From Lingula anatina (taxonomy: Eukaryota > Animalia > Brachiopoda), in assembly GCA_051362555.1 (NCBI GenBank), contig CM120646.1:12524001-12588000 (forward strand): 64,000 nucleotides of DNA. The letters are read 5' to 3'. Below, in pieces: positions 1 through 7,032 of this stretch. Each line of letters starts with the position of its first letter. Position 1 is the first letter of the stretch. A program made the translations under genes and the position numbers. Under the pieces are notes generated by a model that was not told where the DNA came from, made no database searches, and was given only the letters and a program-made list of their open reading frames with translations.

Positions 1-3000
1 AACCACGACCATGGAATCTGGTATTATTGCTGTACCTTTCTCCATCATTATCATGATCTTCTTCCCCAGGTATTCTGTAGCCAGCTAAGTTCAGCATATC
101 TCTGCACATAGGATCAAAGGCGGGGTGAGGATTACCAGAGTGTCCCTGGATACTGGAAACAAATATATCACTTTATTTCACGACTTATTAAGATGTTTTA
201 AAAGCAAACTTTCACGCGTTTCAGGATTTTTTTCTGCGAAGTGTACATGACCTAGCTGCAGATATTTTACCGATCTCTCGAGAAGTACTGAGAATGTTAG
301 ACAAGTAATATGTTTTTTTCTCCATAGGTAAATGAACAGGACACAGTAAGACACGTTTATAGCAGATATACGTGATTGAATCTTTGTACTTTGTAAAAAT
401 ATCACTTCAAGGAAGCGCTAAAACTTATAAACGTCATTTTATTGCTGGTAATGTGGCCCTCCAGCTAGGTTTATACAGGAGTGCAGCTTGGTTTATACAT
501 TATTTATACATGTAGTATCTTACCCAGGCGCTATGTTGACCTTCAGGACCCAAGATTTCATGTTCTGTCCAGCAGTATACCAAACACTTACCCAGGTGCT
601 ACGTTAACTTCCAGGACCCAGGGCTTTAGGTTCTTGTCCAGCAGTATATCAAAGCCGAACAGTTCATGTCCACTGTATTTGCTCAGCAGGTACCTCTGTA
701 CTCCCTCAAACATATCTGGTTCCCCGCTGTTTAAAAGTATGAGAATAACCGTCACTGTACATTTAGGACTCAAAAACATCTGCCTTTCCTTATTTATTTA
801 CTTATTATTTACTTATTATTATTATTCAGTTGCTACAGGCAACAGAGAGGATAATTACTTTTAATAACAGAAATCAAATCGAAGGGTGTACTACCGGCGA
901 TAAACATGTGCATCAACCTTTAGAAAGAGAAATGTAAATTTAAAATAAAGTAACCTGATTATCGTCTTTAATGTGATGTCTTTGATCTCCTCCCAAATCG
1001 GCTCGTGGTCGGTTCCATCTTTAGTTTTCAAATGCTCCCATAGCTTATTAAATGACCTGACAACAATAGAAATAGCGTTTAAACTATTTCAGCACTATAA
1101 ATGCAACAGTTGTTCCAGATATACACCGACGTTTTAAAAACTGGATGACGCGAAATATATAATTAATGCTCTTAATTTGACAACTCTAGCCTATATCAGC
1201 CGCTTAGGAAAATGTATACTTCTCACTTATATTAATATATAATAATTTTAGTATTGGAGTATGTCAATGGTACCGATAGGTGGGCCAATGTTGGGAATTT
1301 ACGAGATGCTTGGTTGTCTGGTTGTTATACATAGTAAAATCAAATATGTGGGTAACCTTTTAACGATCTACATAAATGCAGGTGACACTTTGTTTCGTCA
1401 GGGGAGTATAGATGTTTGCCTTTAGTTGCATGTAACACCAGGAACAATTACTTGCGAATAGTAACGTGGGGGAATTCTATGTACAGTATAGCACACTTAC
1501 CATTTGTGTCCAGTTTGCATAGAGTAACGTAGTTTGTAGTCCGGGTTTTTCTTATTCACTTCAACGTTAGTGAGATGGATAGTTTCATCAAAGGCGCGTG
1601 TTGTAAACCTAAAATTAAAATATTTATATAAATAAACTACACTGGATTGCAACCGTACAAGATGAAGAAGTAGCTTTATGAGGCAATACAGTCTCTGTCT
1701 TTGTCAGAAATCATCCCGGTTTTGTGTTCTTGACTTGTTTTGAAAAACAAAGATATAAGACAATATAAACATTATTTCATGCACACTCTGCTCATATCTG
1801 GCTTCCCCGAAAAGAAATAAAAAATATACAGATGCTCAATAAAAGTTCCTTTCATGATCACACAATTTGAAGAAAAAAAATTAAAAGACATAATATCTTT
1901 GAAGACTGCACGATCAGTACAAGTCATTAATCATTGTATACTTGCGACATCAAAACTGTCACGATTGCCTTACATGAAAAATCAAAGAACTTAATTGTTT
2001 ATAAACGAATACGTACTTCTTAGTAGCAAATCTGACAAGGCCATCGCGGTACACATACACTCTCAGTGGGTCGACGCTTGTGACGAGGACTAAAACCCGC
2101 AAGTCAAACTTATATCCATTTATGAGAAAGGGGTTTGGAATGTATCTGGAAATGCACGAGCACGAGCCTCAGCATATATATAGTTTTCAACTTAAAATAA
2201 TTTGTAACAAACGAACAAAGAAAAAAAGCTTTTCCTCGTCAGAGGAGGTATGATGAAATCAGAAATGTAGGCCCAATTTATTTCATTGAAAAGTGGTGGC
2301 GATATTAAAGGAGTAAGACATACCTTTGCGCGACGCGTCTATGTTGTAATGGAATCTGTCCAAACTGATGAATCACTTCAATGCCTTTGCCTCCGTAAAA
2401 ACAATACTGGTGAATAAAAAATGATCCCTTGTGAAAAACAATTAACATATGTCAACACTCAAAATATACCTCGTACTTTACTAGTTAATTTCAAAGATTT
2501 AAAATTCAATAAAGACTGACCCGGTAGAACTTCAGACCTCCTTAGTTCGACCTACACCTGAAAAGTTTTGCCGCCACATACGAGCTAGGTTGTACTTATC
2601 TACTACTTCTTAACCCAAACTAAAGAATACTTTAAAAAATGATTTTCATTTAACAATATTACCGGTTTTAAAATCCACAGCTGGTTCTCTGGTCCGCTCT
2701 CCCAAGCCTTCTTAACTGCTTCCATCTCGTCAGGTGTCAGATAGGTAGGTGGGTGAAAATTAAATTGTTTACCGTGAGCCATCTTCATTTTTCGCATCTT
2801 ATGTGCTAGTTTATCCTTACAGCCGATAGACCAGTTGTTTGGTAGATGGTTATACTCAAAGAAGGAAAAATTAATACCTCTTATTTGTAATCGAACTGTC
2901 TCTTAGGTTAATACATTTTGTAGATTTTTACCATTGCATTTCGTTCAACTACTTACACATCACGATTTTGCATGTAATGCATCACAGAAAGATAAATCAT

Positions 3001-5131
3001 CATTAATATTGATAAGACCGTAATCTAATTACCCTTCGCCCACCGCACAAAAAAGAACTGGGCCCCGAATCTCGAAAGCATCGTGTATTGCGAATCGCTA
3101 TATCAAACAGAGACTACAATGTATTATATGGGGCGGGTATGTGCGAGTTATGGAATCGAGACGCTTGCGCATGGTCGCAATGCCCGATGCTTTCGAGATA
3201 CGGGGCCCTGAGGTTTTATAGTGTTTTACAGTGCATCAGTGCATTACTGTACATTTAAAGGACTATATTGTTCTGTCCGTGTTTAACAACTGGTGGGGAT
3301 GTTCTCATTTCTATTGGTAAAGGTATGAACATTAAATATCTTTTATATCATGTACATCAACGTGTTGTAAACATCATTGATGTTAGAAATCCGTTAACAC
3401 TAAGAAAGTGTTGCATAAGAATATAATTGTATGACCTATTTACATATACAACTGTATCTGACCTATCGATAGAATTAACTTTTGAATTCTGTGGAATTAA
3501 CCCGTTCGTATTACCTTTTTATTGGGTGTAATGGTTTTGAACATGTGTGTTTCACTTGGTGGGAAACACCCGGTGTAGCGCCCCACCCACATGTTATCAT
3601 CTGGAAATGCACTGTTGTTTTACTAAGTAAGATTTATAAAGCAGTTTGCAAATGCAAAGCTGTCACTGGTTTAATTAGACGCACTTTAATAAATAGATGA
3701 ACACGAAGGACCACCAGTAATACTTTCTCTAATTACCTTTTTTAAATAAAAGGGTTAATTTTCTATTTGATTTCAACATTGAAATAAATAGTTATTTATC
3801 TACCTTTTAAATGAATCCCAGCACAGGTAGAATTTTGTTTTTTAAACATGTAAGAATCATGTTAATGTACATACCATCAGTGAGGGTGTATCCAGACGCG
3901 AACGCTATGGAAGATATGAGAGGAGAGCCGGACTTGTACCAAAACAAACGACTCTTGATGCTATCTGGAAACGCCTCTCCTACAGCAATTAATGCAGGCA
4001 AGTGATAAATATTCACTTAATGCAAATTAATGAAGCATTTGATTCTGTTTAATTATGTTGCGAATAATTTGATTTTCTTCAAATTTGGGTCGCTTATCTT
4101 GTTTCCAACATACCAGCGTTTTCTTTAATATTTTACTCCAGGAGACACTTAAGATTGTTAATCTGACTGCATTAAGCGAAGATCCCCTAGGAGTTATAAT
4201 CTTAGCATTAGCTAGGATGACAGAATTCATTGTAAACGACCCCTAACAAATACAGGTTGCACCATAATAAATGGAGAACTTAATGAAATTAAGTGTAATG
4301 GTTGAAAATGCATATAGCATGGCACATAAAACGCAACGGTGAATTAGAACTTACTTTGTTGTCCAGGCAGCACAAAGTTAATGACAGGTGGAACATTAGA
4401 GAACAGGCTGGGTATCAGCGCAGGCAGTAAAGGCTCCTGTACCTTCCCTGAAATGGTTTTATATTGAGTAGAATAAATGATAGTGCCCTATGACTGCAAC
4501 CTTTTTTTTTAAATTTCGGAATAAATTATTTTGAGCAATGAGGGTATAATGATATTTAAGACTTTTCAAATTGCACTTTAACAAGTAAGTATACAAAATA
4601 ATTTATAATATAATATAATATAATGAGATAATTATGAACAGGGATAAAATATATATATGATGGATGGATTCTGCAGCAGTGCCTGTAACAATTAATAGAA
4701 TAAAGAAATATACATTTTCGAAATCAAACGCCACATTATTTTCTTCTCGTTTACCTTTAAGTGGTGTTAGTGTGGTGTCACCAGCATGGATTTGGGAACA
4801 TTCCTCTTCACTTGTCGATGTCCTTTTTAAGCAGTGGTCAACTTTAGGTTTTGGGTCTGCACATATCACTTCATATACTTTTCAATGAAAGGTAATATAA
4901 TCTTTATAATTTTGGGAAAAAGGGTTAAAACTAGAATACTTAACTACAACAATACGCGTACTATCTCATTGTTTGTCGCACATCTAAGATGATACAATAT
5001 TTCCACATGTCTTCAATTACAAAATTACAGCAGACTAAATTTAAAAAATACTTACCTTTGGAATAGCCAGGGTGATCAAAAGGAGTAAATATAAATACAG
5101 CCCATGCTACAAACGTCTTCAATTGAGCCAT
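1..5131 (-). CDS. TTLL4: TTLL4-like tubulin-tyrosine-ligase-family ATP-grasp ligase, spliced, 3' end outside the window
   Basis: Phase-consistent GT-AG exons: 5131-5056, 4856-4755, 4447-4355, 3979-3875, 3600-3515, 2854-2663, 2406-2324, 2145-2017, 1608-1501, 1056-955, 726-592, then 152-(36 or window edge). Motifs: [126 protein letters not shown]. These are collinear with TTLL4, but it is probably a divergent paralog rather than the orthologue. Confidence 0.9.
519..586 (-). pseudogene. Decayed tandem duplicate of the 3' half of TTLL exon 726-592, including its donor site
   Basis: cttacccaggcgctatgttgaccttcaggacccaag...tgtccagcagtata mirrors 587-648. It reads FGILLD(frameshift)[14 protein letters not shown]|gtaag. 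Confidence 0.75.
3059..3209. mobile_element. MITE with terminal inverted repeats, in a TTLL intron
   Basis: gggccccgaatctcgaaagcatcg ... cgatgctttcgagatacggggccc. Related termini occur at about 14459-14555 and 38354-38450. Confidence 0.7.
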
Positions 5132-5749
5132 GTTGTTTTTCAACTGTCACGCTGATGGGTAGGAAATTTAAGTACCTCAGTGACCCTATAATTAGGAAAG
5201 GTTAACCTGCTGGTAGCGGTGTTTAACATTCCGTCACACGCTGGTAACCACACACAGTATCACGAAGGCATATGTAGTAAATAATGCACTGTCCACGAGC
5301 CCGATATCACGATGCTATCGTGTATTTCGGGCGAGGGGGTAACAGCTGCTTTATTTGTTATACATACAAAGGGAAATCGTGCGTGTTCTCCACCCAACCC
5401 CACTAACTTTGAATACATACCACGGGGCTGATATCAAAACAAAAGGATTGCAGGGACAGATACAATGAATGAGACGGAGTGACTGCCACGTGCGAAAGAT
5501 GGGCAGGAAATCAGCCAACTACTCACAGAAAACCACTGACCCATGTCCCTGTCAATACACACGCAACCACAAACCATTCACGCAAATGAAAATGATTGGA
5601 CGGTGACCGCAATTAGGCAGTAAACGCGGGGAAAGTCCATTCTTTGATATCACCCCATGCGCACTTTGCTCAACCAGGGCTACAGATTGATTTTTCACTG
5701 GATATTTGAAGATTCTGTGTGGCCCATTTTTCCTCTGTGGCCCCATGAT

Positions 5750-6290
5750 GTAGTTAAATTTATTTATTTCCGTGACAATGCCGAATATATACAAATATAA
5801 TACAATAATGTGAATATATAAGTAACGGCCCAGCCCTATGGGCTTACAAAGTCACCGGTTACCAAACATTAGTTATATTGAAGCTTCTTTCTGACCTGAA
5901 AGCAGTTAAAGAGAAACCTCGCTGTGCTTCTATGAAAATCTGTAAAAAGCACCTGAGGTCTCTCTTTAACCTCTTCCAGGTCATGAAAGATAAGATCACC
6001 CACTTTTACTTTTTCAAACCATTTTTTCCTTAAATTTTTATAAATTGGACAATCAAATAAAAAATGATACTCGTCTTCTACTTTTTTTGTGTTACAAAGA
6101 ATACATAGTCTGTCATCTAATTTTTTTGTTAACAAAGCGGCCCGTTTCTACATATAATGGAAGAACCCCTGATCTAAATTGGGCCATGATCGATCTTTCT
6201 GCAGCTTTTAAATTATACTTAACATAATTTTCCACAACGAAATTTTCTTTTTCTTTTCTATAGACCCTTAACTTGTAATGCAAAAGATAA
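5750..6290 (-). mobile_element. 5'-truncated non-LTR retrotransposon (LINE) 3' end with C-terminal Cys/His zinc-knuckle region
   Basis: Frameshifted ORFs read ..RSIMAQFRSGVLPLYVETGRF / RLCILCNTKKVEDEYHFLFDCPIYKNLRKKWF. The 3' tail sequence (ttatttccgtgacaatgccgaatata) recurs at about 7040-7120. Confidence 0.8.
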
Positions 6291-6316
6291 ACACACACAC
6301 ACACACACACACACAC
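6291..6316. repeat. (CA)n microsatellite
   Basis: Direct observation. Confidence 0.9.
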
Positions 6317-6540
6317 TGGTGGAAAAGGTTGTCCCACCTCCAATGCCATGTGCTTTTATTTACAAATGATCAACTCACAGGTGTAAATTGAAATAAACGG
6401 TGCCTTTTATTCCAGATGCAATATCCATCATGATAAATGGTACAAACATACGAAATAGCGTCGAAGATACCCATATTTAATATCATTAATTCACATTTAT
6501 AACATGTAACCCTTCAAATGCCATGTTTCACTGTGATTTC

Positions 6541-6708
6541 CAGAGGCGGATTTAGGCCGTCTTCTAGGTCTTCCGGAAGACGGTCAGATTTTTAAGTTTA
6601 CATTGTCGGGCATCTAATGTTTTCTGTCAGAAGACGGTCAAAAATGGAGGATGGATCAACAAAGATAATTTGGAAGACTGTCAGAAAATATCTCTGGATC
6701 CGCCCCTG
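6541..6708. mobile_element. MITE of the CAG(A/G)GGCGGAT...ATCCGCCCCTG type
   Basis: Inverted termini, flanked on both sides by ATTTC (candidate target-site duplication). Confidence 0.65.
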
Positions 6709-6794
6709 ATTTCTACAGAGGTAAAGAAATGCATGTCCATTAAATTGAAAAGACACCACCAAATATCGCCAAATTCACACACAATTAGCATTAA

Positions 6795-7032
6795 GATACG
6801 TTTCTCCTACACCATTTTTATGCAGGCAAATGAGAAATATTCACTTAATGCAATTCAATAAAACGTTTGATTCTATTTAATTATGTTGCCAAAAATCTGA
6901 TTTCCTTCAAATTTGGGTCCCTTTTCTTGTTTCCAACATATTCACCAGCTTTTCTTATATTTTACGCATCTCCAGCTCGTTATGTAACCTGTTAATCTGA
7001 CTGCATTCAGCTCGGGTTCCCGAGGGGTTATG
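6795..7032 (-). repeat. Degenerate copy of the TTLL intron and acceptor segment at about 3968-4200
   Basis: atgcaggcaa.tga.aaatattcacttaatgcaa...cttcaaatttgggtc.ctt.tcttgtttccaacata...ttaatctgactgcatt is shared with 3992-4175. Confidence 0.75.

What the first reader, a model, noticed from the sequence alone, without database searches (positions are those of the whole stretch)
4755..5131. TTLL4-like ligase begins with an apparent signal peptide
Seen: the first coding exon encodes [25 protein letters not shown] (basic residue, short hydrophobic core, G-x-S cleavage motif) and ends in a phase-1 intron. A short stem exon with two Cys follows, then the TTL domain. Known: canonical TTLL4 is a cytosolic/nuclear glutamylase with a long N-terminal region and no signal peptide. 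Inference: a secretory-pathway or secreted ATP-grasp ligase acting on non-tubulin substrates. The hydrophobic core is short, so this is not certain.
Basis: partly seen in the sequence, partly recalled or inferred. Interest (0 to 1): 0.8.

Follow-up and report, generated by a model that had tools for sequence, protein, structure and literature searches.

The report
Secretory tubulin-glutamylase offshoot family in Lingula
In the lamp shell Lingula, a gene descended from the tubulin-modifying enzyme TTLL4 is expressed with a predicted signal peptide in place of the usual long N-terminus and belongs to a family of at least eight such paralogs, which likely attach amino acids to secreted proteins rather than to tubulin.

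Summary
The observation mostly holds. Stranded polyA reads confirm the gene and 9 of 11 modelled junctions. They run unspliced through an in-frame stop 6 codons before ATG 5131, so this is the start. One correction: exon 2 begins at 4877, not 4856, which adds seven codons and a third Cys. The signal peptide of this copy is weak taken alone. The family carries the claim: eight distinct paralogs (seven of them Lingula by name or by this window, one unnamed) form one clade (100/96) and all begin with a hydrophobic leader. A crude rule scores 6 of 8 as signal-like against 5 of 245 canonical TTLL4s. All eight gained a Cys pair beside the ATP site (0 of 345 other relatives) and lost the initiase Arg; the five complete or near-complete cores also lost the basic surface. 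The catalytic residues are kept. The Lys that binds donor glutamate is Phe here and varies across paralogs. Best reading: a secretory-pathway ATP-grasp amino-acid ligase family, donor likely not Glu in this copy. SignalP, localisation and activity are untested. Precedent: CPED1/C7orf58. The scan noted a separate secreted TTL-like enzyme in a protist.

The parts
5132..5380 (-). Transcribed 5' leader of exon 1 (upper end not determined), with an in-frame TGA at 5149-5147 and a 29-codon out-of-frame uORF from ATG 5229
   Evidence: stranded depth 6.4-7.8 in bin 5149-5382 in X1 and X2; uORFs and acceptors listed
5056..5131 (-). Coding part of exon 1: residues 1-25, predicted signal peptide (Lys5, uncharged core 6-18); phase-1 donor
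   Evidence: same Met in P0002; donor confirmed by RNA
4755..4877 (-). Exon 2: end of leader with V-I-C31 (codon 4863-4861, second candidate cleavage site) and low-confidence stem with C41 and C52
   Evidence: joint 4877/5056 in 4+4 reads; homologous to the N-termini of P0003, P0125 and P0148
4355..4447 (-). Exon 3: first TTLL4-conserved block
   Evidence: tblastn hits from 16 of 16 TTLL4-type queries; read depth in X1, low in X2; its two junctions not among the joints shown; absent from model P0002
3875..3979 (-). Exon 4
   Evidence: joint 3600/3875; alignment to paralogs
3515..3600 (-). Exon 5
   Evidence: joints 3600/3875 and 2854/3515
2663..2854 (-). Exon 6: TTL domain start; new C173 (2821-2819), K174 and K224 (TTLL6 K125 and K174); GAG acceptor
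2324..2406 (-). Exon 7: phosphate loop; new C227 (2403-2401); G230 in place of the TTLL4 initiase Arg (TTLL6 Q180)
2017..2145 (-). Exon 8: R269 and R291 (TTLL6 R219 and R241)
1501..1608 (-). Exon 9: HLTN motif, N310 (TTLL6 N264); V311 and E312 in place of Tyr and Ser
955..1056 (-). Exon 10: K331 (TTLL6 K283)
592..726 (-). Exon 11: Mg ligands D392, E405 and N407 (TTLL6 D346, E359, N361)
36..152 (-). Exon 12: F423 (118-116) in place of the glutamate-binding TTLL6 K377; the gene continues beyond the window edge
   Evidence: joint 152/592; mapping; about 120 further residues in P0004 and P0002

Best explanation
This is an expressed, spliced Lingula gene for a TTLL4-derived ATP-grasp protein whose long N-terminus is replaced by a predicted signal peptide and a short Cys-bearing stem, so it likely enters the secretory pathway and likely ligates an amino acid, probably not glutamate in this copy, onto non-tubulin secreted proteins. 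Shown: gene structure, start codon, expression in 2 of 4 runs, the paralog clade, the TTLL fold (model of paralog P0003) and the residue changes. Inferred: a TTLL4 duplicate acquired a leader exon and then expanded; the leader is cut after C31 or S24; C173 and C227 form a disulfide that braces the phosphate loop in an oxidising lumen; lumenal ATP and Mg activate a carboxylate of the substrate as an acyl-phosphate, which the amine of a free amino acid attacks, as in all TTL/TTLL enzymes; paralogs differ in which amino acid they add because they differ at the two donor-pocket positions.
For: Start fixed by RNA continuity over an in-frame stop; no TTLL4 N-terminal exon upstream in the window (5 weak scattered hits, best E 0.072, all to the catalytic core of the queries). 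All 8 distinct full N-termini of the clade have an early hydrophobic stretch; 6 of 8 pass a strict rule against 5 of 245 Met-starting canonical TTLL4s. The leaders of P0007, P0130, P0240 and P0283 show no significant similarity to this one yet keep the pattern, as expected of signal peptides. Cys at TTLL6 positions 124 and 177 in 8 of 8 against 0 of 345 others; these positions lie next to K125 and in the loop 175-183, which both contact the ATP gamma-phosphate (bioRxiv 10.1101/2020.06.07.139295, passages). Core net charge -5 to +11 in 5 complete or near-complete paralogs against +20 to +35 in 21 canonical TTLL4s. K125, K174, R219, R241, N264, D346, E359 and N361 equivalents are all kept in this protein. 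K377, said to be invariant in glutamylases and essential, is K in 117 of 117 others but F here, and N, H, M, R or K in paralogs. Model of P0003: pLDDT 87.8, residues 1-57 under 50, best fold match TTLL6, E 4.6e-31.
Against: No signal-peptide predictor was available; my rule was set after seeing the sequences, uses a recalled hydropathy scale, and the paralogs are not independent. This copy's leader is atypical: Asp, His and Pro follow the core, and C31 is 13 residues from it. N-glycosylation sequons are not enriched (2-6 in complete paralogs against 2-7 in canonical TTLL4). No TTLL or polyglutamylase word was found in the one supplementary file held for each of two Lingula shell-proteome papers. 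Loss of K377 and of the initiase Arg could mean low or no activity. No substrate or donor was tested.
Confidence: 0.62

Rival explanations
1. The family is secretory but still ligates glutamate (or aspartate), making secreted or shell-matrix proteins acidic after translation; this copy compensates for the lost Lys.
For: K283 is kept here, and paralogs P0130 (R, K) and P0283 (R, R) keep basic residues at both donor positions. Luo et al. report finding no secreted acidic proteins among Lingula shell proteins (PMC4595640, passage).
Against: K377 to Ala abolishes TTLL6 activity; here it is Phe, and the neighbouring Ser is Glu. No TTLL word in the shell-proteome supplements searched.
Confidence: 0.14
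2. The proteins are secreted but catalytically idle, or act only as ATP- or peptide-binding scaffolds.
For: Long branches; loss of the initiase Arg and of K377; R241 is Lys in P0003 and P0125. Inactive versions are reported for the secreted TTL-like CPED1 in teleosts and molluscs (PMC2824669, passage).
Against: K125, K174, R219, D346, E359 and N361 are kept in every paralog that covers them, across pairs only about 40% identical.
Confidence: 0.1
3. The leader is not a working signal peptide, in this copy or in the family; the protein is a short cytosolic, ciliary or organellar TTLL4 variant.
For: Short core and atypical c-region in this copy; no sequon enrichment; 5 of 245 canonical TTLL4 records also pass my rule; no canonical Lingula TTLL4 was identified in my searches, so a cytosolic role for some member is not excluded.
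Against: Hydrophobic leaders at the very N-terminus of 8 of 8 paralogs with unrelated sequence, the shared Cys pair and stem cysteines, and the loss of the basic surface.
Confidence: 0.12
4. Gene-model artefact or pseudogene: the true start lies elsewhere or the locus is decaying.
For: Public models of this locus disagree (P0001 starts in exon 5; P0002 lacks exon 3 and most of exon 11); one GAG acceptor; repeat-rich surroundings; two junctions not seen in the shown table.
Against: Open frame over 449 codons; 9 of 11 junctions read in polyA RNA, the GAG acceptor included.
Confidence: 0.02

Closest known systems
TTLL4 tubulin monoglutamylase (branch initiase; Pfam PF03133)
   Same: Nearest relatives in all three protein searches (up to about 44% identity); TTLL4-type blocks from exon 3 to the C-terminal helices; nucleotide and Mg ligands kept.
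   Different: About 70-115 residues before the first conserved block against a median of 378; hydrophobic leader; new Cys pair; initiase Arg is Gly or Lys; K377 site altered; basic surface lost; C-terminal tail absent.
TTLL6 structures (6VZT, 6VZU and related)
   Same: Best fold match of the P0003 model (E 4.6e-31, TM 0.84 on the target); source of the residue numbering.
   Different: Q180, H362 and K377 determinants differ; TTLL6 is a cytosolic elongase.
CPED1/C7orf58 (Anantharaman and Aravind 2010, PMC2824669; passages read)
   Same: [quoted passage not shown]
   Different: A multidomain protein fused to cadherin-like and PC-esterase domains and only distantly TTL-like; the Lingula proteins are stand-alone descendants of TTLL4 with no such fusion in the 552-605 aa models.
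TTL and the glycylases TTLL3/8/10
   Same: Non-glutamate donors go with loss of the K283/K377 pair; TTL has an aromatic residue at the K377 site, as this protein does (Phe).
   Different: This protein keeps K283, sits with TTLL4 by sequence, and has a leader.

Membership tests
TTL/TTLL ATP-grasp ligases (PF03133) | TTL domain and fold | tested here: met
   Pfam above cut-off in 3 of 12 exon peptides; model of paralog P0003 matches TTLL6
TTL/TTLL ATP-grasp ligases (PF03133) | Catalytic K125, K174, R219, R241, N264, D346, E359 (TTLL6 numbering) | tested here: met
   all present in the window protein (roles)
TTLL4 (descent) | Closest relatives and tree position among TTLL4 | tested here: met
   best hits are TTLL4; the clade falls among animal TTLL4 rows apart from the six distant rows used as outgroup, sister group unresolved
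TTLL4 (function: glutamate initiase) | Arg at the Q180 site | tested here: not met
   Gly here; Arg in 117 of 117 others
TTLL glutamylases | Both donor-binding lysines K283 and K377 | tested here: not met
   K283 kept, K377 is Phe
TTLL glutamylases | Glutamylation of tubulin tails in the cytosol | not testable with these tools
   needs assay and localisation
Signal-peptide (secretory) proteins | N-terminal n/h/c regions at the true start | tested here: inconclusive
   start confirmed; passes a crude rule with 6 of 8 paralogs; no trained predictor available
Signal-peptide (secretory) proteins | N-glycosylation sequons enriched | tested here: not met
   2-6 against 2-7 per core; not a required feature
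CPED1/C7orf58 | Fusion to cadherin-like and PC-esterase domains | tested here: not met
   complete paralogs are 552-605 aa and align with TTLL4 to their ends

The most novel reading that the evidence does not exclude
Lingula re-routed a tubulin-code enzyme into the secretory pathway and expanded it into a set of lumenal ligases with different amino-acid donors, which write an unknown post-translational amino-acid code on extracellular matrix proteins, possibly supplying the acidic side chains that its calcium-phosphate shell proteome lacks in sequence.
Probability: 0.2. Interest if true: 0.92.

Novelty: new variant of a known kind. Interest (0 to 1): 0.72.

Why it matters
TTLL enzymes are known as cytosolic or nuclear writers of the tubulin code (established knowledge). 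Amino-acid ligation onto secreted proteins by a TTL-like enzyme was predicted in 2010 for CPED1, and my searches listed no paper on signal-bearing TTLL4 descendants. These single-domain, well-folded paralogs with differing donor pockets make that idea directly testable. They would also point to a new class of extracellular modification in an animal with an unusual apatite-chitin shell.

Tried and rejected
No genome is held for this window, so paralog count, linkage and a canonical Lingula TTLL4 could not be checked on DNA. The look-up of sequencing runs: no RNA holder listed; the runs laid were offered by species label. First fold with a 14-row alignment failed (pLDDT 35.9); the second used paralog P0003 with 145 rows, and gave no coordinates for a Cys-Cys distance. 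ESM Atlas: whole P0003 gave only TTL clusters; residues 1-75 gave no usable hit. Acceptor 4856 for exon 2, my own first model too, was dropped after RNA showed 4877. Sequon enrichment was tested and not found. Members outside Lingula: none among the named hits listed (best 120 each) or among the 150 representatives, apart from unnamed P0240, which pairs with Lingula P0163. Unnamed P0239 sits weakly next to the clade (82/90, long branch) but lacks the Cys pair; unnamed P0254 has a short hydrophobic start but groups elsewhere. These lists are crowded by canonical TTLL4, so absence from other brachiopods or phoronids is not shown. Literature: nine searches; search listings only, except passages of 10.1101/2020.06.07.139295, PMC2824669, PMC4595640, PMC13425148 and PMC9117372 and a word search of one supplementary file each for PMC4595640 and PMC13425148. 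Tables held as pictures, gene-ID-only tables and the preprint's supplementary alignment were not seen and may bear on the shell-proteome and residue-conservation claims. No complex prediction was run.

Full report
Source and gene. The window is AT-rich, intron-bearing DNA. Its exon 2854-2663 matches a Lingula anatina TTLL4-like protein at 97%, so this is a Lingula or a very close brachiopod. Twelve minus-strand exons from ATG 5131 to position 36 give an open frame of 449 codons, and the gene runs off the window; P0004 and P0002 hold about 120 further residues. No genome is held.

Expression and start. Four RNA runs offered by species label were laid on 1-7000. X1 and X2 cover the exons on one strand only; X4 and X7 show no exon depth, so expression looks restricted by tissue or stage (labels are coded). 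Nine of the 11 modelled junctions are among the 15 joints shown of 23; the two around exon 3 are not. Depth at variant sites is level across 5089, 5139 and 5177. This matters because 5143 is the only one of 9 upstream AGs that could put an earlier exon in frame; unspliced reads there carry the in-frame TGA at 5149-5147. A minor isoform using 5143 is not excluded, and the transcription start was not found. Sixteen TTLL4-type queries find nothing credible upstream in the window. The reads differ from the window at fixed sites, one of which makes residue 15 Leu as in P0002, so they come from another individual or population.

The leader. Alone it is modest: Lys5, an uncharged run at 6-18, then a polar stretch. 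The searches gave eight distinct full N-termini in one clade: this gene (P0002), P0003/P0123, P0125, P0148, P0007, P0130, P0283 (all named L. anatina) and unnamed P0240. The clade has support 100/96 (46 rows, core only, LG+G4), with long branches and no resolved sister. All eight begin with a hydrophobic stretch. A rule I set after seeing them (Met start, 8-mer Kyte-Doolittle mean of at least 2.0 within the first 20 residues, inside an uncharged run of at least 10; scale recalled) passes 6 of 8, against 5 of 245 Met-starting canonical TTLL4s; the two misses are P0125 (mean 1.76, run 23) and P0130 (mean 3.6, run 8). Eighteen canonical rows without a Met start and 82 non-canonical rows were outside that count; none of the 82 passed. 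The Fisher p of 4e-8 overstates the case because the rows are related. This copy's first 45 residues align with P0003, P0125 and P0148 (0, 1 and 0 of 1000 shuffles as high) but not with the other four. The alignment puts C31 on the Cys that ends the uncharged leaders of P0003 and P0125, a fit to the small-residue rule at -3 and -1 (recalled). Cutting there leaves two stem Cys in this protein, P0003 and P0148, but three in P0125.

The enzyme core. With TTLL6 numbering from PDB alignments and roles from Mahalingan et al. (bioRxiv 10.1101/2020.06.07.139295, passages), every nucleotide, phosphate and Mg ligand checked is present. Three things changed. First, positions 124 and 177 are Cys in all eight paralogs, but Arg (114 of 117, 3 gaps) and Ala (117 of 117) in the other hits; 0 of 345 non-Lingula relatives have both. 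K125 and the loop 175-183 both contact the gamma-phosphate, so a disulfide is plausible but unmeasured. Second, the Arg that marks initiases is Gly (Lys in P0007), and K377, which binds the donor glutamate, is Phe here, Asn in P0003 and P0125, His in P0007, Met in P0163, Arg in P0283 and Lys in P0130; K283 is Lys, Arg or Thr (mapping after N361 crosses small gaps in some paralogs, and P0007 lacks an exon right after the 283 site). Third, the core's net charge falls from +20 to +35 (21 canonical rows) to -5 to +11 (5 complete or near-complete paralogs), which fits loss of binding to acidic tubulin tails (inference). Sequons are not enriched. The AlphaFold model of P0003 is confident from residue 58 on and matches TTLL6 best.

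Mechanism. The most likely reading is a TTLL4 duplicate that gained a leader exon, entered the ER and Golgi, and diversified. ATP is available in that lumen, where kinases such as Fam20C work (recalled). The chemistry would be that of TTL/TTLL: acyl-phosphate on a substrate carboxylate, then attack by an amino acid's amine. For this copy a non-glutamate donor, perhaps aromatic or neutral as in TTL and the glycylases, is more likely than Glu. Targeting (about 0.85 for the family, 0.75 for this copy), activity and donor are inferred, not shown. A role in the shell is a guess: the words searched did not occur in the two shell-proteome supplements, though Luo et al. note that they found no secreted acidic shell proteins.

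Comparison and novelty. By descent it is a TTLL4; by two tested determinants it is not a TTLL4-type glutamate initiase. It works most like what was predicted for CPED1/C7orf58 (PMC2824669, passages) but lacks those fusions. Searches pairing Lingula with TTLL4 (0 papers), TTLL with signal peptide, extracellular, glutamylation and evolution (0), and three related sets listed no description of this family; the library lacks most subscription papers. The scan's own notes list a protist secreted TTL-like enzyme fused to temptin and an exported bacterial ATP-grasp pair (untested here), and nothing on this genome or sequence. Verdict: real, a new variant of a known kind, interest 0.72.

Noticed in passing
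window 2854-2857 (minus): Exon 6 uses a GAG acceptor, which is uncommon (recalled); the joint 2854/3515 is read 9 and 6 times.
   Followed up: yes
window 519-584 and 587-653: A 67-nt tandem duplicate of the end of exon 11 with its donor, 82% identical; reads use the first donor (joint 152/592).
   Followed up: partly
window 3968-4197 and 6795-7031: Two copies of a repeat, 79% identical; the match of the intronic copy runs over the exon 4 acceptor and 12 coding bases, so the acceptor may be repeat-derived or the overlap may be chance extension.
   Followed up: no
window 4355-4447 (minus): Exon 3 is missing from public model P0002 and has low depth in X2 (0.44 against 2.73 in X1); in-frame skipping is possible.
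   Followed up: partly
window 5229-5140 (minus): A 29-codon uORF ends a few bases before the main ATG.
   Followed up: no
window 5869-6355 (minus): Broken frames with a Cys/His motif that resembles the C-terminal end of a LINE retrotransposon protein (resemblance recalled).
   Followed up: no
window 7773-64000: Many long dispersed repeats of 70-90% identity, up to 2.8 kb (first 150 self-matches shown); no second TTLL gene in the window.
   Followed up: partly
P0003, P0005, P0007 and P0123-P0125, P0148, P0226: Two groups of paralogs list the same longest-contig lengths (98,289 and 285,580) and near-consecutive accessions, which suggests tandem clusters, possibly two assembled haplotypes.
   Followed up: no
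P0254 (unnamed): A divergent TTLL4-like protein outside the Lingula clade that also starts with a short hydrophobic stretch just before the first conserved block; possibly an independent secretory offshoot, or a truncated model.
   Followed up: partly
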